Below, one piece after another: positions 30,044 through 51,272 of a stretch of DNA of 64,000 nucleotides; positions within the stretch are counted from its first letter, which is position 1, and each line of letters opens with the position of its first letter. Below the pieces are notes generated by a model that searched no databases, was not told the origin of the DNA, and worked only from the letters and a program-made list of their open reading frames with translations. The translations under genes and the position numbers were made by a program. This DNA comes from an uncultured Dehalococcoidia bacterium (GTDB taxonomy: Bacteria > Chloroflexota > Dehalococcoidia > DSTF01 > JACRBR01): contig CAYWOO010000192.1 in the NCBI GenBank assembly GCA_964458665.1, forward strand, positions 6,984 through 70,983. The letters are read 5' to 3'.

Positions 30044-30075
30044 AGTTTGCAGTTTACAGTTTGCAGTTCGTGGAG

Positions 30076-30217
30076 CCCTCACCCGGCCCTTCGGGCCACC
30101 CTCTCCCTCAGGGGGAGAGGGACGGACTGACGAATGCGCGCGGGGAGATCGTCGCTTGCGACGTGGAGCCCCTCTCCCGGCCCTGCGGGCCACCCTCTCC
30201 CACTGGGGGAGAGGGAC
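30076..30217. repeat. Two family A (subtype CCCTCACCCGGCCCTTCGGGCCACCCTCTCC...GGGGGAGAGGGAC) elements
   Basis: Copies at 30076..30123 and 30169..30217. They lie between the J-domain gene and eno. Confidence 0.85.
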
Positions 30218-42287: not shown

Positions 42288-42820
42288 CGCGCACCTCACC
42301 GCGGCCGTCGGGCGCGCCCTCCCCGCGACGCGGAGAGGGCTCTCGGTTCGGGGGGAGTGCATTAGAGATCGGGCGGTCGTGCTCGATGAGGGGGCGTGCG
42401 GCGCTGCGCGCACCTCACCCCACCCGTCGGGCGCGCCCTCTCCGCGACGCGGAGAGGGCTCTCGGTTCGGGGGGTGCTGCCAAGGTCGACCGGTAGTGTT
42501 GGAACGTGGCGGCGCGCGGGGCTTCGCGCACCTCACCCCGGCCGTCGGCCGCGCCCTCTCCGCGACGCTGAGAGGGCTCTCGGTTCGGGGGGAGTGCATT
42601 AGAGATCGGGCGGTCGTGCTCGATGAGGGGGCGTGCGGCGCTGCGCGCACCTCACCCCGGCCGTCGGCCGCGCCCTCTCCGCGACGCGGAGAGGGCTCTC
42701 GGTTCGAGGGGGAGTACATCAGAGATTGGGCGGCTGTCCTGGATTAGCGGCGTGCGGCGCTGCGCGCACCTCACCCCGGCCGTCGGCCGCGCCCTCTCCG
42801 CGACGCGGAGAGTGCTCTCG
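42288..42820. repeat. Satellite-like tandem array, about 119-bp period, 5 family A cores
   Basis: Cores start at 42289, 42408, 42526, 42645 and 42764. The inter-core segments 1-2 and 3-4 are identical, 4-5 is related and 2-3 is different. Confidence 0.9.
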
Positions 42821-45546: not shown

Positions 45547-46905
45547 ATGGAACCGCAGATCCGCTACTGCACGACCTCAGATGGCGCCAGCATCGCCTAC
45601 GCGACGATGGGCGCGGGCCCGGTGGTGATCATGCCGCCGACGGTATATTCCTTTTCCGGACGGCAGCGCGTATTTCCGGGCCATCGGCTGCTGTGCAACG
45701 CGATCGCCGGGCGGTTCACACTGGCGCAATACGACCACCGAGGCATGGGCCTATCCGGGCGCGAACGCCGCGAGTCCGACCTGGATGCGCGCCTTCTGGA
45801 TCTCGATGCTGTGGTGCGTGCCGTTGGCGCGGAGACGTTCGCGCTGTACGGCGGAGGGTTCAGCGGACTGACCGCAATGGCGTACACGGCGCGGCATCGT
45901 GAGCGCGTCACGTGTCTTGTCGTCGCGGATTCATACGCGAGAGGTGGGCAGTTCTATCGCGAGAATCCGATGGGACAGATAATCGATGCGCTCGGTGTCG
46001 TGACGGCCGAGCAGTGGCCCATCGTCACAAACATGATTGGGACCCGCGCCCGCGCTGACGACGACGATCCGCTGTCGGCGCGGGCAATCGGAGCACTGAT
46101 ACGGGAGACGTGGGACCCGGATGCGTTCCTGGCGCACCGGCAGGTCGGACGTCAGATGGATGTGTCGGCGGAACTTTCGGCGATCGCCGTTTCAACGCTC
46201 ATCGTAGCGACCGGTGCAGTCCAAGCTTCGTTCGAGCATTCTCGCGAGCTCGCGGCGGCGATTCCGGGCGCGCGATTGATGCGTGTTGTGTCGCGCTGGG
46301 CGGGCTGGGACGAACGCGACTACGCCACGGTAGTCGCGTTCCTTCGTGAGCACGCGCCGTCCGTCGAGACAGCCGCTGCGCCGACTGCGAGCGCGCCTAT
46401 CGCCGCCCCTTCCGGCATGGTCGTGGTCCTCTTCACCGACATCGTCGACTCAACCGCACTGACGGAGCGGCTGGGCGACACGGTGTTCCGCACGGCGTCG
46501 CGCGCGCTCGACGAAGGGATGCGCGCGGCGATGCAGGAGGCGGGCGGCACGCCGGTCGAGGGTAAGGTGCTGGGCGATGGCGTCATGGGCGTGTTCACGT
46601 CGGCGTCGCTGGCGATCGCCGCCGCCCGGCGCTGCATCGAACTCAGCGCAGAGAGCGAACTGCAGCTCCATGTCGGCCTCCATGCCGGTGACGTGATCCA
46701 CGAAGCGGGCAACGTCTACGGCGGCGCCGTCAACATCGCCTCGCGCATCTGCGGGCTCTCGGCGCCGGGTGAGGTGCTCGTGTCGGGAACCGTGCGCGAG
46801 CTGGCACGAACGTCTGCGGGCGTCGAGTTCGAGGATCGCGGGGAGCAGGAGATGAAGGGCGTGGGGGAGCCGGTGCGGGTGTACGCGGTGCGAGGCGCCG
46901 AATGA
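45547..46905 (+). CDS. Alpha/beta-hydrolase-fold + class III cyclase fusion (paralog 2)
   Basis: The ATG at 45547 lies 2 nt after the paralog 1 stop. By eye, the cyclase half is about nine-tenths identical at the DNA level to paralog 1. The hydrolase half is strongly diverged. Confidence 0.85.
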   Translation: MEPQIRYCTTSDGASIAYATMGAGPVVIMPPTVYSFSGRQRVFPGHRLLCNAIAGRFTLAQYDHRGMGLSGRERRESDLDARLLDLDAVVRAVGAETFALYGGGFSGLTAMAYTARHRERVTCLVVADSYARGGQFYRENPMGQIIDALGVVTAEQWPIVTNMIGTRARADDDDPLSARAIGALIRETWDPDAFLAHRQVGRQMDVSAELSAIAVSTLIVATGAVQASFEHSRELAAAIPGARLMRVVSRWAGWDERDYATVVAFLREHAPSVETAAAPTASAPIAAPSGMVVVLFTDIVDSTALTERLGDTVFRTASRALDEGMRAAMQEAGGTPVEGKVLGDGVMGVFTSASLAIAAARRCIELSAESELQLHVGLHAGDVIHEAGNVYGGAVNIASRICGLSAPGEVLVSGTVRELARTSAGVEFEDRGEQEMKGVGEPVRVYAVRGAE

Positions 46906-48233
46906 GCACGACAGATCCCCAGGTCCGCTACTGCACGACCTCCGATGGCGTCCAAATCGCGTACGTCGTTGATGGCAGCGGTCCGGGCATCCCGGTCATC
47001 TGCATGGGCGCACCCTTTACCGACGTGCGACCGTCCTACTGGGAAGAGTTCGGCTTGACGACCATCGGCGGCGTTTCGCGAGACGCGCGGCCGGTGGCAT
47101 GGTTCGACTTTCGCGGATGCGGCATCTCCGAGAGAAATGTCGAAGACGTCTCCATGGACGCCCTCGAGCTGGATCTTTACGCCGTGATCGAGCGGCTCGA
47201 TTGGCCGCGGTTCTCGCTGATGGCGATGGCCATGACCGGCCCGCTCGTCATGAAGTACGCGGCCGAGCATCCCGATCGTGTCGCCAGCCTTGTACTCCGG
47301 GAGACGTACGCGCGCGCCGCGGAGATGGGGCGCATCCCCCGCATGCGGGCACTGGGGTTGCTCCTGCGTGAGGACTACGAGTCCTACATGATGTTGATGG
47401 TCGCGACAAATGGCTGGTTGAGCGAGGGCGCGCGCCTGATGAAGCTCTTCGCCGGCGCGACAACCGAGGAGATGTGCCGCATGTATGCGGCCGCTTCACC
47501 GACGTTCAACGCGAACATGTTCGTCGACAAGATCCAGGCCCGTACGCTCGTGATCGGCCGCGATGACATGCCCGTGCCGAGCGGCGACATGCTTCGCCAG
47601 CTGGGAGGGCGCATCCGTGACGCACGCGTCGTCATGGAAGCGGGCGGCTTCGCGCGAGACGGCCCTGCGGTGGAGCAGTTCCTGGCCGAAGACGATCCTG
47701 GTGCCGCGGCGCCAGCGCCGACAACTCCCACCGGTACGCGCACGGTGCTGTTCACCGACATCGTCGGCCACACCGAGATGATGCAGCGCCTCGGCGACGC
47801 GAAGGGGCGTGACGTGCTGCGCGAACATGAGCGCATCACGCGCGAAACGCTGAAGCAGCACGGCGGCGCGGAAGTGAAAACGATGGGCGACGGATTCATG
47901 GCGTCGTTCGGCAGCGTGACGTCGGCAATGGAGTGCGCGATCGCGCTCCAGCGAGCGTTCGCTGCGCACACAGATTCAATGCCGGAACCGCTGCACGTCC
48001 GCGTCGGCCTCAACGCCGGCGAGCCCATCGAAGAAGACGGGGATCTCTTCGGCGCGACTGTCATCCTCGCGTCACGCATCGCAGCGAAGGCGGGCGCCGG
48101 CGAGATCCTCGTACCGGACACCGTGCGCGGATTGCTGTCGGGGAAGGGATTCGTGTTCGGCGATCGCGGTGAGTTCGTGCCGAAGGGCTTCGATGAAGGC
48201 GTGCGGCTGTGGGATGTACGTTGGCGGGAATGA
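46902..48233 (+). CDS. Alpha/beta-hydrolase-fold + class III cyclase fusion (paralog 3)
   Basis: The start overlaps the paralog 2 stop (ATGA). Motifs FTDIVGHT, MGDGFMASF and GATVILASR (Ile in place of the catalytic Asn). Confidence 0.85.
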   Translation: MSTTDPQVRYCTTSDGVQIAYVVDGSGPGIPVICMGAPFTDVRPSYWEEFGLTTIGGVSRDARPVAWFDFRGCGISERNVEDVSMDALELDLYAVIERLDWPRFSLMAMAMTGPLVMKYAAEHPDRVASLVLRETYARAAEMGRIPRMRALGLLLREDYESYMMLMVATNGWLSEGARLMKLFAGATTEEMCRMYAAASPTFNANMFVDKIQARTLVIGRDDMPVPSGDMLRQLGGRIRDARVVMEAGGFARDGPAVEQFLAEDDPGAAAPAPTTPTGTRTVLFTDIVGHTEMMQRLGDAKGRDVLREHERITRETLKQHGGAEVKTMGDGFMASFGSVTSAMECAIALQRAFAAHTDSMPEPLHVRVGLNAGEPIEEDGDLFGATVILASRIAAKAGAGEILVPDTVRGLLSGKGFVFGDRGEFVPKGFDEGVRLWDVRWRE

Positions 48234-49808: not shown

Positions 49809-51272
49809 ATGACCATCGAAGCGCGCATTGAATACGTCACGACGGACGAGGGCGTGAGCCTCGCCTGCACGAAGTTTGGCAGCGGGCCGCCGCTCATCTT
49901 TCACTTCTCTGGTCCGTATGTTTCGCACTTCGAGATGGAGTTCGAGTTTCCTCCCGTACAGGCGGCCTGCGAGGCACTCGCGCGTGTGGCTACGGTTATC
50001 CGATACGACTTCCGAAACACGGGATTATCGACGAGAGGCGTCGAGGACGTCTCCGTCGCGGCGCATGTCCGCGATCTGGACGCCGTGATGCGGCACTTCC
50101 AGCTCGAGTCTGCCGCGCTCCTGTACCCGTTTCATGCTGCGAAGATTGCCGTCGAGTACGCCGCCGCGCAACCCGAGCGCGTGACCGCGCTCGTGCTCTG
50201 GGCGGCGAACCTGGACGCTGCGGGATCCCGATGGGGGACGCCCGTGACCGACATTCTGAAGGCAGCGCTGCGCCTGGGACACGAAGCGTACGCGTCGCTT
50301 TTTGCGGTGATGACCGTCGGGCTCGAGGCTCACGCGAATGCTGCTTGGTACGCGCGATGGGTCTGTGAAGCTTCGAATCTCGATGACTTAATCCGCGTCG
50401 AGGCAGCAATCCACGCGCACAACTCCCGTGAAGCCGCCGTGCGAGTGCGGACGCCAACGCTCTTCGCGAGCCGGCGCTTGCCCTTTTACAACCTCGGCCC
50501 TCCAAGCCCGGAGATGATTCGCGAGCATCGTGCGTTAACAACACACATCGCTGCAACGATCCCCGGCGCCCAGTCGGCCTCGTTCGACGGAACCTCCGCG
50601 TGGATCTCGGGCGACGAGTTCGTCACTGGCCGGATCCCGAAGTTTCTCAACGAGATCCTCGCGAAAGGAGATCCGCAGGGAATCGACTCAGCTGCACCGA
50701 CATCCGGCGGCCTCCGAACGGTGCTCTTCACCGACATCGTCGGCCACACGGAGATGATGCGGCGGCTGGGCGACGCGAAGGGACGCGACGTGCTGCGCGA
50801 GCACGAACGGATCACGCGCGAGACGCTGAAGGCGCATGGCGGCGCGGAAGTGAAGACGATGGGCGACGGGTTCATGGCGTCGTTCGGCAGCGTCACGTCG
50901 GCGATGGAGTGCGCGATCGCGTTGCAGCGGGCCTTCGACGGAGCCCTCACCTCGCCACGGCGAGTCGATGACCGGCCCTCCGGGCCACCTTCTCCTAGAG
51001 GGGGAGAGGGACGCGGGAACGACGAGCGTATCGCGATCCGGATCGGGTTGAACGCCGGGGAGCCGATCGAGGAAGACGGCGACCTGTTCGGTGCGACGGT
51101 GATCCTGGCGTCGCGCATTGCCGCGAAGGCGGGGGCTGGGGAAATCTTCATCCCGGAACCGGTGCGGCACTTGCTCTCCGGTAAGGCGTTCGCGTTCTCG
51201 GATCGCGGCGAGTACGCGATGAAGGGCTTCGACGATTCCGTGCGACTGTACGAAGTCCGCTGGCGGGAGTAG
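49809..51272 (+). CDS. Alpha/beta-hydrolase-fold + class III cyclase fusion (paralog 4) carrying an in-frame REP insertion
   Basis: The cyclase half is near-identical to paralog 3 (TVLFTDIVGHTEMM...MGDGFMASFGSVTSAMECAIALQRAF). It differs by an extra loop, GALTSPRRVDDRPSGPPSPRGGEGRGNDER. Confidence 0.85.
   Translation: MTIEARIEYVTTDEGVSLACTKFGSGPPLIFHFSGPYVSHFEMEFEFPPVQAACEALARVATVIRYDFRNTGLSTRGVEDVSVAAHVRDLDAVMRHFQLESAALLYPFHAAKIAVEYAAAQPERVTALVLWAANLDAAGSRWGTPVTDILKAALRLGHEAYASLFAVMTVGLEAHANAAWYARWVCEASNLDDLIRVEAAIHAHNSREAAVRVRTPTLFASRRLPFYNLGPPSPEMIREHRALTTHIAATIPGAQSASFDGTSAWISGDEFVTGRIPKFLNEILAKGDPQGIDSAAPTSGGLRTVLFTDIVGHTEMMRRLGDAKGRDVLREHERITRETLKAHGGAEVKTMGDGFMASFGSVTSAMECAIALQRAFDGALTSPRRVDDRPSGPPSPRGGEGRGNDERIAIRIGLNAGEPIEEDGDLFGATVILASRIAAKAGAGEIFIPEPVRHLLSGKAFAFSDRGEYAMKGFDDSVRLYEVRWRE
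50943..51011 (+). repeat. Family A REP-like element inside the paralog 4 CDS
   Basis: gccctcacc[tcgccacggcgagtcgatga]ccggccctccgggccaccttctcctagagggggagagggac. Same subtype as the intergenic copies at 30076..30217. Confidence 0.8.

What the first reader, a model, noticed from the sequence alone, without database searches (positions are those of the whole stretch)
50943..51011. REP-like intergenic repeat inserted in frame into a cyclase catalytic domain
Paralog 4 differs from paralog 3 by a 21-residue-longer loop. Between QRAF and (R)IGLNAGEP it has 35 aa against 14 aa in paralog 3.
- The extra DNA is a recognisable family A element: gccctcacc...ccggccctccgggccaccttctcctagagggggagagggac.
- It is the same subtype as the intergenic copies at 30076..30217, with an internal 20-bp hairpin insertion.
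- It is translated as ...LTSPRRVDDRPSGPPSPRGGEGRGN... without breaking the frame.

This is a direct example of a dispersed palindromic repeat being built into a protein loop.
Basis: seen in the sequence. Interest (0 to 1): 0.6.

Follow-up and report, generated by a model that had tools for sequence, protein, structure and literature searches.

The report
Repeat DNA translated in cyclase loop
A short GC-rich repeat that normally lies between genes is read through as a floppy 34-residue loop in an adenylate-cyclase-type protein of a soil Dehalococcoidia bacterium, and the same loop carries repeats of at least four kinds in many sister genes and related species, which makes it a recurrent sink for repeat DNA.

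Summary
Window 50943-51012 lies in frame inside ORF 49809-51272, an alpha/beta-hydrolase + class III cyclase gene. It is a 90%-identical copy of the intergenic repeat at 30075-30123, with an extra 21-nt hairpin module.

The interpretation needs three changes.
1. The family is not a GTAG-type REP. It has the three blocks of the E. coli BoxC/PIT/TM "intrastrand triplex motif" (CCCTCACCC / CCCTCTCCC / GGGAGAGGG), which is published as strictly intergenic.
2. Paralog 4 probably did not gain the element by a fresh insertion. Its syntenic orthologs (N-terminal dS about 0.1) have the short loop, and synonymous divergence jumps 4-13-fold at the cyclase domain. The occupied loop most likely came with a converted cyclase segment.
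3. The case is not isolated. Seven more cyclase paralogs in this genome carry one or two TM copies in the same alpha3-beta4 loop, and two carry a heptamer-armed palindrome there. Relatives carry GTAG REPs in both orientations and heptamer arrays. About 40% of the 113 closest database homologs have expanded loops.

An AlphaFold model places the insert in a low-confidence surface loop. Flanking codons are under purifying selection (omega 0.04-0.19). Verdict: a new variant of a known kind, moderately interesting.

The parts
49809..51272 (+). Paralog 4: alpha/beta-hydrolase-fold + class III cyclase gene (487 aa) that hosts the repeat
   Evidence: ORF list and translation. Pfam PF00561 and PF00211. 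N-terminal domain 94-96% identical to the syntenic orthologs P0104/P0057.
50718..51245 (+). Cyclase catalytic domain (PF00211 match, residues 304-479)
   Evidence: AlphaFold model mf76f785a8912 has pLDDT 90.7. Foldseek best matches are Ma1120 (4wpa) and Rv1900c (1ybu), target-normalised TM about 0.9.
50937..51038 (+). The 34-codon alpha3-beta4 loop (DGALTSPRRVDDRPSGPPSPRGGEGRGNDERIAI), which replaces the canonical 13-codon loop
   Evidence: It corresponds to model residues 77-108, between helix 61-76 and strand 109-116; the 10-residue blocks covering 81-100 average pLDDT 55-61.
50943..51012 (+). BoxC/TM-type repeat copy (subtype A1) translated in frame
   Evidence: 44/49 identity to the intergenic copy at 30075-30123 once the 21-nt module is removed (my count on the sequences). 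Core pattern occurs 3 times against 0 expected.
50943..50951 (+). Block 1 (GCCCTCACC), the pyrimidine block corresponding to GGGTGAGGG of TMECO on the other strand
   Evidence: Compared with Holder 2015 Table 1.
50952..50972 (+). Extra 21-nt hairpin module TCGCCACGGCGAGTCGATGAC (encodes SPRRVDD)
   Evidence: Its core CGCCACGGCGAG occurs 10 times in the genome (2.7 expected); 4 of these lie inside intergenic family copies at the same internal position. The same module is in G003 L001 and L017, and is absent from the neighbouring paralog in L017/L021.
50973..50987 (+). Small spacer hairpin CGGCCC-TCC-GGGCCA
   Evidence: 118 of 171 full copies in the genome have such a spacer hairpin.
50988..51012 (+). 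Main hairpin: block 2 (CCTTCTCCT), loop AGA, block 3 (GGGGGAGAGGGAC). The stem is weakened by two C-to-T changes.
46902..48233 (+). Paralog 3: same architecture, with the canonical unoccupied 13-codon loop at 47961-47999
30075..30123 (+). Intergenic copy of the same subtype (A1)
30169..30217 (+). Second intergenic copy, 94 nt downstream (block 1 = CCCTCTCC variant)

Best explanation
The 70-nt stretch is a non-autonomous BoxC/PIT/TM-type three-block repeat (pyrimidine block, spacer hairpin, pyrimidine block, loop, purine block). It once landed in the DNA that encodes the alpha3-beta4 loop of a hydrolase-cyclase paralog.

It survived there for three reasons. The family is stop-free in all six frames, its length is a multiple of three (48 nt, +21 nt here), and the loop is a disordered surface loop, so the extra residues are carried as a floppy Pro/Gly/Ser-rich extension.

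The occupied loop has since been passed between paralogs by gene conversion, within a large family of about 40 cyclase genes per genome, many in tandem. Paralog 4 most likely received it together with a converted cyclase segment, not by a fresh insertion. The same loop has been hit independently by other repeat families, so it acts as a repeat sink.

Shown: the identity of the repeat, its frame, its position in the fold, absence from the true orthologs, the jump in dS, purifying selection on the flanks, and multiple repeat families in the same loop.

Inferred: translation in vivo, neutrality of the loop, gene conversion as the transfer route, and the mobilising enzyme. The candidate enzyme is the DUF559 endonuclease, whose genes are bracketed by inverted copies of this repeat.
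For: - **Repeat identity.** 44/49 identity to the intergenic copy (my count on the sequences). The pattern occurs 3 times against 0 expected. There are 233 cores in the genome.
- **Family.** The blocks match TMECO no. 1, CCCTCTCCCTGTGGGAGAGGGCCGGGGTGAGGGC, read on the other strand.
- **Fold.** The insert is model residues 77-108, between helix 61-76 and strand 109-116. The blocks covering 81-100 average pLDDT 55-61, in a model of mean 90.7. Foldseek matches Ma1120 and Rv1900c, and phmmer aligns the insert opposite a gap in Ma1120.
- **Orthologs without it.** P0104 (L037, same kinase-cyclase synteny) and P0057 (L038) are 96% and 94% identical in the N-terminal domain, and their loop is ATHTESMPEPL(Y/H)V.
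- **Conversion.** Against L037, dS is 0.097 in the N-terminal domain, 0.44 before the loop and 1.30 after it. DNA identity falls from 97-100% to 62-88% from about 50660 onward.
- **Mosaic.** Both C-terminal haplotypes (PDTVRG, PEPVRH) occur with every loop class. The masked tree needs 7 changes for the TM label.
- **Selection.** Omega is 0.04-0.05 for the flanks between two occupied alleles (paralog 4 against G003 L007, dS 0.43-0.77), so occupied genes have stayed functional for a long time.
- **Recurrence in this genome.** The same loop holds a TM copy in C1 (two genes), C57, C139 and C214; two tandem TM copies in C25:1 and C25:9816; and a family B palindrome in C23 and C199.
- **Recurrence in relatives.** GTAG REPs occur forward (G005 L003/L009, G003 L024), reversed (G004 L014) and as another type (G004 L018). 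The same REP types each have tens of matching copies elsewhere in this genome.
- **One orthogroup, four to five loop states**.
- **Hot spot within the protein.** In a 100-sequence full-length alignment, internal insertions of 7 aa or more lie almost only in this loop. The exceptions are 7 sequences after position 227 and 2 in the interdomain linker; start and C-terminal extensions also vary.
- **Candidate machinery.** Both DUF559 genes of this genome are bracketed by inverted TM copies, and so are 6 more DUF559 genes in relatives (8 of the 25 matches in all).
Against:
- The donor of the presumed conversion was not found. Every other allele differs from paralog 4's cyclase domain by dS of at least 0.27-0.4. 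It could equally be the orthologs' cyclase halves that were converted.
- All TM copies in cyclase loops share one orientation and one reading frame. This could mean one ancient insertion that later co-evolved with the genomic family, which would lower the count of independent TM events. The GTAG, family B and heptamer cases remain independent.
- Several occupied loops are only slightly longer than the native one. The repeat replaced native codons, which a simple insert-and-tolerate model does not predict.
- The host subfamily has Ile in place of the catalytic Asn (GATVILASR), so 'tolerated by an active enzyme' is not established.
Confidence: 0.75

Rival explanations
1. Targeted hot spot. The DNA encoding this loop is a preferred landing or repair site. 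It could be a target of the repeat-mobilising enzymes (RAYT for GTAG REPs, DUF559 for TM repeats), or a fragile, recombination-prone spot where abundant hairpin repeats are copied in as filler. On this view recurrence reflects mutation bias more than tolerance.
For: - At least four unrelated repeat kinds occur within about 13 codons, while other internal parts of the roughly 450-residue protein show almost no insertions of 7 aa or more.
- Repeats often replace native codons instead of adding to them. Examples are L092, +4 aa for a 24-nt REP, and L072, where a (CCAACAT)4 array sits in a loop of native length.
- Tandem double occupancy occurs in C25.
- All TM copies share one orientation and frame.
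Against: - There are no target-site duplications and no conserved flanking motif around 171 genomic copies.
- GTAG REPs sit at slightly different codons, in both orientations and in two frames, as expected for untargeted hits filtered by selection.
- TM copies also sit in loops or linkers of SufBD, MutL, a P-type ATPase, a succinyl-CoA-ligase-like protein and others.
- The conversion boundary in paralog 4 is at the domain border, not at the loop.
Confidence: 0.2
2. Adaptive diversification. The loop is a regulatory or partner-binding surface, and repeat-derived peptides are retained because they diversify the specificity of the many sensor-cyclase paralogs.
For: - About 40% of the 113 closest homologs have expanded, very diverse loops, while the rest of the domain is 75-90% conserved.
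- Occupied alleles persist under purifying selection.
- From my own knowledge of Tesmer et al. 1997, the alpha3-beta4 loop of mammalian adenylyl cyclase C2 contributes to the Gs-alpha binding groove. I did not test this here.
Against: - The inserted peptides are low-complexity and are predicted to be disordered.
- Their sequences are dictated by the DNA repeat, not shaped away from it: 90% DNA identity to intergenic copies.
- Omega within the element is higher (0.26-0.30) than in the flanks.
- The same repeats sit in unrelated housekeeping genes.
Confidence: 0.08
3. Not a real in-gene repeat. It is either an assembly chimera of a metagenome bin, or a decaying pseudogene.
For: The genome is a fragmented bin of 259 contigs, and several cyclase paralogs lie at contig ends.
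Against: - Cyclase-coding sequence continues in the same frame on both sides of the element.
- The same element with the same 21-nt module is found in an independent assembly (G003 L001 = P0002). Many other public contigs carry occupied loops.
- Omega is 0.18 in the N-terminal domain and 0.04-0.19 in the cyclase flanks.
Confidence: 0.02

Closest known systems
BoxC / PIT elements / TM(ECO) intrastrand triplex motifs of E. coli and other bacteria (Holder et al. 2015, PMC4666352; earlier Bachellier, and Hoyne and Maher, as cited there)
   Same: The three sequence blocks are the same. TMECO no. 1, read on the other strand, is GCCCTCACCC-CGG-CCCTCTCCC-ACA-GGGAGAGGG. Ours is GCCCTCACC-[spacer]-CCCTCTCCC-TCA-GGGGGAGAGGG. 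Both are dispersed, often occur as close pairs, are G/C-rich, and have no transposase of their own. 32 of 171 copies here have the short E. coli-like spacer.
   Different: Most copies here (118 of 171) have a small GGCC(C)nnnGG(G)CC hairpin in the spacer, and some have a second hairpin module, as in this gene. There are 233 copies in 3.3 Mb, against 23 in E. coli. TMECO is reported as 'always located intergenically'; here at least about 19 copies are translated inside genes. Triplex formation was not tested.
Rickettsia palindromic elements (RPE; Ogata et al. 2000, as cited in PMC3733652) and intragenic GTAG/CGTC REPs (Di Nocera et al. 2013, PMC3733652)
   Same: These are short palindromic repeats inserted in frame in genes that stay functional. 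They add 15-30 residues and are sometimes doubled in one gene.
   Different: The repeat family is different, with no GTAG or CGTC tag. The published cases are scattered over unrelated genes. Here one loop of one paralogous family is occupied again and again, by several families, and occupied alleles are exchanged between paralogs.
Rv1900c (LipJ) of M. tuberculosis and Ma1120 of M. avium: alpha/beta-hydrolase-linked or stand-alone class III cyclases (PDB 1ybt/1ybu, 4wp9)
   Same: Best sequence and fold matches of the host domain. Rv1900c has the same hydrolase + cyclase architecture (PDB molecule name).
   Different: The solved proteins have a short alpha3-beta4 loop, and the insert aligns to a gap. 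The host subfamily has Ile at the transition-state Asn position (GATVILASR).

Membership tests
BoxC / PIT / TM(ECO) intrastrand triplex motif repeats | Three consecutive blocks (two pyrimidine-rich, one purine-rich) able to give a hairpin plus a third strand, with mirror symmetry | tested here: met
   GCCCTCACC ... CC(T/C)TCTCC(T/C) ... GGGGGAGAGGG in the gene copy. 171 full three-block copies in the genome.
BoxC / PIT / TM(ECO) intrastrand triplex motif repeats | Sequence similarity to the described TMECO consensus | tested here: met
   The blocks CCCTCACCC, CCCTCTCCC and GGGAGAGGG are identical to the reverse complement of TMECO no. 1 in Table 1 of PMC4666352. The spacers differ.
BoxC / PIT / TM(ECO) intrastrand triplex motif repeats | Located between genes ('always located intergenically' in E. 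coli) | tested here: not met
   This copy and about 18 others lie in frame inside genes. This is a habit, not a structural criterion, so I still file the element here.
BoxC / PIT / TM(ECO) intrastrand triplex motif repeats | Forms an intrastrand triplex in vitro (CD, NMR) | not testable with these tools
   Only hairpins could be predicted. Their energies are not significant against shuffles (z -0.5 to -1.5).
REP / REPIN elements handled by RAYT transposases | GTAG (or CGTC) tetranucleotide tag at one end of a simple hairpin | tested here: not met
   The element starts GGAGCCCTCACC and has no GTAG or CGTC tag. Genuine GTAG REPs exist in the same genome and differ in sequence.
REP / REPIN elements handled by RAYT transposases | The family flanks a RAYT (Y1 transposase, PF01797) gene | tested here: not met
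   The best PF01797 gene (C43:11784-12107) is flanked by inverted GTAG REPs at C43:11689 and 12212, not by this family. This family instead brackets DUF559 genes.
In-frame palindromic insertions of the RPE kind | A repeat with many genomic copies lies inside an ORF, keeps the frame and has no stop, and the host gene stays conserved | tested here: met
   (omega 0.04-0.19 in the flanks).
In-frame palindromic insertions of the RPE kind | The insert maps to a surface loop away from the core of the fold | tested here: met
   Model residues 77-108, between alpha3 and beta4; the blocks covering 81-100 average pLDDT 55-61. Distance to the active site or the dimer interface was not computed, because no coordinates were available.
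Class III nucleotidyl cyclase (host domain) | PF00211 match above the cut-off, and the cyclase fold | tested here: met
   69.8 bits against a cut-off of 21.9. Foldseek E 4e-17 to Ma1120.
Class III nucleotidyl cyclase (host domain) | Full catalytic set: two metal-binding Asp, and transition-state Asn and Arg | tested here: not met
   Both Asp (FTDIVG, MGDGF) and the Arg are invariant. The Asn position is Ile (GATVILASR). Activity is therefore uncertain.

The most novel reading that the evidence does not exclude
The alpha3-beta4 loop of this Dehalococcoidia hydrolase-cyclase family is an active capture site and not merely a tolerant one. Breaks or template switches in the loop-encoding DNA are repaired by copying in whichever hairpin repeats are abundant (TM motifs whose parent cassettes carry a DUF559 endonuclease, GTAG REPs with their RAYT, heptamer arrays). 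Gene conversion then shuffles the results among some 20-40 paralogs. The outcome would be a naturally hypervariable surface on a family of signalling proteins, and a direct link between the long-unexplained BoxC/TM repeats and a mobilising nuclease.
Probability: 0.2. Interest if true: 0.8.

Novelty: new variant of a known kind. Interest (0 to 1): 0.6.

Why it matters
In-frame palindromic repeats are known from Rickettsia (RPEs) and from scattered intragenic REPs. How they get into genes has remained open: does the mutation process target certain sites, or do random hits survive only where the protein tolerates them?

This family offers a natural experiment. It has dozens of near-identical target genes per genome, one loop that is hit repeatedly, at least four repeat kinds, empty and occupied orthologs at dS of about 0.1, and tandem double occupancy.

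It also extends the BoxC/PIT/TM triplex-motif repeats from 'always intergenic' to coding sequence in a free-living soil bacterium. In this clade it ties them to DUF559 endonuclease cassettes, which gives a testable candidate for how these repeats move.

For annotation, Pro/Gly/Ser-rich loops such as PLSPASGRPSPTGGEG in high-GC genomes should be recognised as translated repeats and not as functional motifs.

Tried and rejected
- **First structure job.** The full-length model with a 100-sequence alignment gave pLDDT below 50 for the whole cyclase half. I discarded it and redid the cyclase domain alone.
- **Masked tree.** The maximum-likelihood tree of 39 cyclase domains with the loop masked is largely unresolved (18 of 36 inner branches open). 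It cannot count gains, and I use it only as a sign of mosaicism.
- **ORF criterion.** 'An ORF of at least 60 codons on both sides' is useless at 65% GC: 254 of 466 hits passed. I replaced it with a GC3-GC2 frame test, which gave 15 candidates, not counting copies near contig ends.
- **Regular expressions.** Two over-strict expressions for domain extraction returned almost nothing and were corrected.
- **Target-site search.** I found no target-site duplications and no insertion motif around 171 copies.
- **Rfam.** No family matched in the window.
- **Folding energies.** Hairpin energies are not significant against dinucleotide shuffles, so structure is argued from the conserved block layout and not from energy.
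- **Donor search.** No allele is closer to paralog 4's cyclase segment than dS of about 0.27-0.4.
- **Rejected ideas.** The intergenic repeats do not derive from the cyclase gene: there are hundreds of copies, several subtypes, and they bracket DUF559 genes. The loop is not convergent low complexity: it has 90% DNA identity to intergenic copies.
Full report
**1. The observation**

ORF 49809..51272 (+, 487 aa) has an alpha/beta-hydrolase fold followed by a class III cyclase domain (PF00211, 2.9e-19).
- Three further genes with this architecture lie upstream (43997, 45532, 46902).
- Aligned with paralog 3 (46902..48233), paralog 4 has 34 residues between QRAF and RIGLNAGEP, where paralog 3 has 13.
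- The extra DNA contains, at 50943-51012, GCCCTCACC[TCGCCACGGCGAGTCGATGAC]CGGCCCTCCGGGCCACCTTCTCCTAGAGGGGGAGAGGGAC.
- Without the bracketed 21 nt, I count 44/49 bases identical to the intergenic copy at 30075-30123 (sequences).
- The core pattern occurs 3 times in the window against 0.00 expected. A looser hairpin core occurs 17 times in the window and 233 times in the genome. The genome is a 3.27-Mb, 259-contig, 65% GC bin.

**2. What kind of repeat it is**

- The genomic copies share a fixed layout: a pyrimidine block (CCTCACCC or CCCTCTCCCC), a spacer, a second pyrimidine block (CCCTCTCC), a 3-9-nt loop, and the complementary purine block (GGAGAGGG).
- Of 171 full copies, 118 have a small GGCC(C)nnnGG(G)CC hairpin in the spacer, 32 have a spacer of 6 nt or less, and 21 are of other kinds.
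I checked that against the paper.
- TMECO no. 1 of E. coli is CCCTCTCCCTGTGGGAGAGGGCCGGGGTGAGGGC (PMC4666352, Table 1). Its reverse complement is GCCCTCACCC-CGG-CCCTCTCCC-ACA-GGGAGAGGG. These are the same three blocks as here, with a shorter spacer.
- The element has no GTAG or CGTC tag. The genome's best RAYT-like gene (C43:11784-12107) is flanked by genuine GTAG REPs (C43:11689 and 12212), not by this family. 'REP-like' is therefore true only in the loose sense.
- The 21-nt 'internal insertion' is a module of the family. Its core CGCCACGGCGAG occurs 10 times (2.7 expected), and four of these sit at the same internal position in intergenic copies.
- Holder et al. state that TMECO is 'always located intergenically'.

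**3. Where it sits in the protein**

- A cyclase-domain model built on 29 paralogs of this genome has mean pLDDT 90.7.
- The insert is residues 77-108, between helix 61-76 and strand 109-116. The 10-residue blocks covering 81-100 average pLDDT 55-61.
- The best structural matches are Ma1120 and Rv1900c, with target-normalised TM of about 0.9. In the phmmer alignment to Ma1120 the insert faces a gap.
- By the usual class III numbering this is the alpha3-beta4 loop. That naming rests on my own knowledge.
- The host subfamily keeps both metal-binding Asp and the Arg but has Ile at the transition-state Asn position (GATVILASR). Catalytic activity is therefore uncertain.

**4. It is not a single case**

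*Paralogs in this genome.* A tblastn search finds 41 cyclase matches, about 40 paralogs. In the close subfamily the same loop holds:
- one TM copy (subtype A2, CCCCTCTCCCCGGCCTCCGGCCGACCCTCTCCCACCGGGGGAGAGGGT, 48 nt) in C1:2474, C1:3541, C57, C139 and C214;
- two tandem copies in C25:1 (A2 + A1) and C25:9816 (A2 + A2);
- the A1 copy in paralog 4.

Two paralogs of a more distant subfamily (C23, C199) carry, in the same loop, a different palindrome with heptamer-built arms (GATGGAnGATGGACGAT...ATCGTCCATCCTCCATC). Copies of it also occur elsewhere in the genome.

*Same-genus genomes*:
- G003 has the A1 element with the same 21-nt module (L001). It also has neighbouring paralogs with and without the module (L017/L021).
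- G005 (L003, L009) and G003 (L024) have a forward GTAG REP inside the canonical loop.
- G004 has a reversed GTAG REP (L014), another REP type (L018) and a TM variant (L008).
- These REP types each have tens of matching copies (26-48, allowing up to 4 mismatches) elsewhere in the window's genome.

*Wider samples.*
- Among the 113 closest database homologs with a readable loop, 60 have the 13-residue loop and about 45 have expanded loops. These include TM-type, GTAG REPs in two frames and both orientations, heptamer arrays and others.
- With a short-loop query against one genome per species, 14 of 73 loops are 14 residues or longer and one 12-residue loop is a heptamer array. Most of these are recognisably repeat-derived. 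All records but a few are Dehalococcoidia or Chloroflexota MAGs.
- In a 100-sequence full-length alignment, internal insertions of 7 residues or more lie almost only in this loop. The exceptions are 7 sequences after position 227 and 2 in the linker; start and C-terminal extensions also vary.

**5. How paralog 4 got its copy**

- The N-terminal domain identifies the orthologs. P0104 and P0057 are 96% and 94% identical there, and L037 has the same kinase-cyclase synteny.
- Both have the short loop ATHTESMPEPL(Y/H)V.
- More distant members of the same orthogroup have no insert (P0031), an A2 TM copy (P0033), a GTAG REP (P0117), or a REP plus other material (P0016).
- Against L037, DNA identity is 97-100% over the first 600 nt and falls to 62-88% in the cyclase domain. 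dS is 0.097 in the N-terminal domain, 0.44 before the loop and 1.30 after it.
- The cyclase half is thus not orthologous between paralog 4 and its orthologs. One lineage had it replaced from a paralog.
- The whole loop and the following VRV->IRI differ, and all TM-bearing alleles share the (D)ER(I/V)x(I/V)RIG flank. The simplest reading is that paralog 4 received an already occupied cyclase segment.
- The donor was not found, and the direction of conversion is not proven.
- Mosaicism is general. Both C-terminal haplotypes occur with every loop class, and the masked tree scatters the TM label.

**6. Is the host gene alive?**

- Omega is 0.18 for the N-terminal domain (paralog 4 against L037).
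- Omega is 0.04-0.05 for the cyclase flanks between two occupied alleles (paralog 4 against G003 L007, dS 0.43-0.77). It is 0.26-0.30 within the element, where there are few sites.
- Occupied genes have therefore persisted under purifying selection for a long time, and the element itself is less constrained.
- In paralog 4 the main stem has decayed by two C-to-T changes, while the G003 copy is intact.

**7. Background and candidate machinery**

- About 15 TM copies pass a frame test for lying inside genes. Four more in cyclase genes at contig ends are not counted there.
- Ten copies lie in eight cyclase genes. The rest lie in SufBD, MutL, a P-type ATPase and a succinyl-CoA-ligase-like protein (Pfam-checked), and in Lhr-like, IleS-like and kinase-like ORFs (by eye).
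- Half of the in-gene copies thus sit in a target of under 1 kb. These are not independent events, because of conversion.
- Both DUF559 (PF04480) genes of the genome are bracketed within about 60 bp by inward-facing inverted TM copies. The pair at C214 is the A2 subtype found in the cyclase loops.
- Eight of the 25 DUF559 matches (this genome and relatives; 21 are strong) show the same bracket under a strict pattern, including genomes from other families of the order.
- This agrees with earlier scan notes and was partly tested here. It makes DUF559 cassettes the candidate parents of the solo repeats.
- No target-site duplication or target motif was found.

**8. Mechanism, rivals and standing**

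- Best explanation (0.75): a TM-type repeat is carried as a tolerated, disordered, translated loop. It is spread and reshuffled by gene conversion in a large paralog family, and the loop acts as a sink for several repeat families.
- A targeted or repair-capture hot spot (0.2, not exclusive) is suggested by the restriction to one loop, by repeats that replace native codons, and by the uniform orientation and frame of the TM copies. The lack of a target signature and the varied positions and orientations of the GTAG REPs argue against it.
- Adaptive diversification (0.08) and artefact or pseudogene (0.02) are unlikely.
- Published knowledge covers in-frame RPEs and intragenic REPs (PMC3733652). 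It does not cover TM/BoxC repeats in genes, or one loop of a paralog family hit recurrently by several families. I rate it a new variant of a known kind.

Noticed in passing
own genome C30:11750-12230 and C214:7766-8310 (loci L035, L036): Both DUF559 (PF04480) endonuclease genes are bracketed by inward-facing inverted copies of the TM-type repeat, like terminal inverted repeats of a roughly 0.5-kb cassette. The same bracket is seen at 6 more DUF559 genes in relatives, including other families of the order.
   Followed up: partly
own genome C43:11689-12237 (locus L031): A Y1-transposase (RAYT-like, PF01797, 49 bits) gene is flanked by two inverted GTAG REPs (GTAGGGACGCAGCTTTAGCTCCGTCC), the classic REP/RAYT arrangement. 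A related REP type occurs reversed inside a cyclase loop in G004.
   Followed up: partly
own genome C212 (ORF of 1640 aa around 6700): An Lhr-like helicase ORF carries at least six in-frame TM-type copies (EHLTPAFGHPSPRRGEG...) and two APP(L/I)HVVERGLGGEV units, in two clusters. It was identified by eye and not checked against Pfam.
   Followed up: no
own genome C110:32896, C42:24980, C30:5703, C182:7515: TM-type copies lie in frame in SufBD, in the MutL linker, in a P-type ATPase (reverse orientation) and in a succinyl-CoA-ligase-like protein. All four hosts were confirmed by Pfam.
   Followed up: partly
cyclase loops and other genes of the own genome; P0002-P0121: Every TM-type copy in a cyclase loop, and 5 of 6 in other genes, is read in the same orientation and frame (block 1 = Leu-Thr/Ser-Pro, block 3 = Gly-Glu-Gly/Arg-Gly), although all six frames are open. 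This is unexplained: it could be peptide selection, polarity of the repeats relative to transcription or replication, or common descent.
   Followed up: partly
own genome C24:3158-3652; L072; P0018, P0026, P0098: Some loops of native length are made of heptamer arrays: (GAACCTn)4 read as QNLEPGTENLN, and (CCAACAT)4 read as SNFQHPTSNIQ. Repeat DNA can therefore replace the loop without lengthening it.
   Followed up: no
window 42317-42814: Five TM-type cores lie at 118-119-bp spacing, a satellite-like array built from the same family. This matches an earlier first-reader note.
   Followed up: no
window 49809-51272 against L037/L038: Synonymous divergence jumps 4-13-fold at the hydrolase/cyclase domain border. 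Cyclase domains are exchanged between paralogs while N-terminal domains stay orthologous.
   Followed up: yes
own genome contig ends C25:1, C139:1, C57:8013, C1:3591, C237, C242: Several contigs break inside cyclase paralogs, often at or near the repeat-bearing loop. The family and the number of occupied loops are therefore undercounted in this bin.
   Followed up: no
window 50706-51269 and 47730-48230: Paralogs 3 and 4, and their whole close subfamily, have Ile where class III cyclases have the transition-state Asn (GATVILASR against GGAVNIASR in paralogs 1 and 2). They may be weak or non-catalytic.
   Followed up: partly
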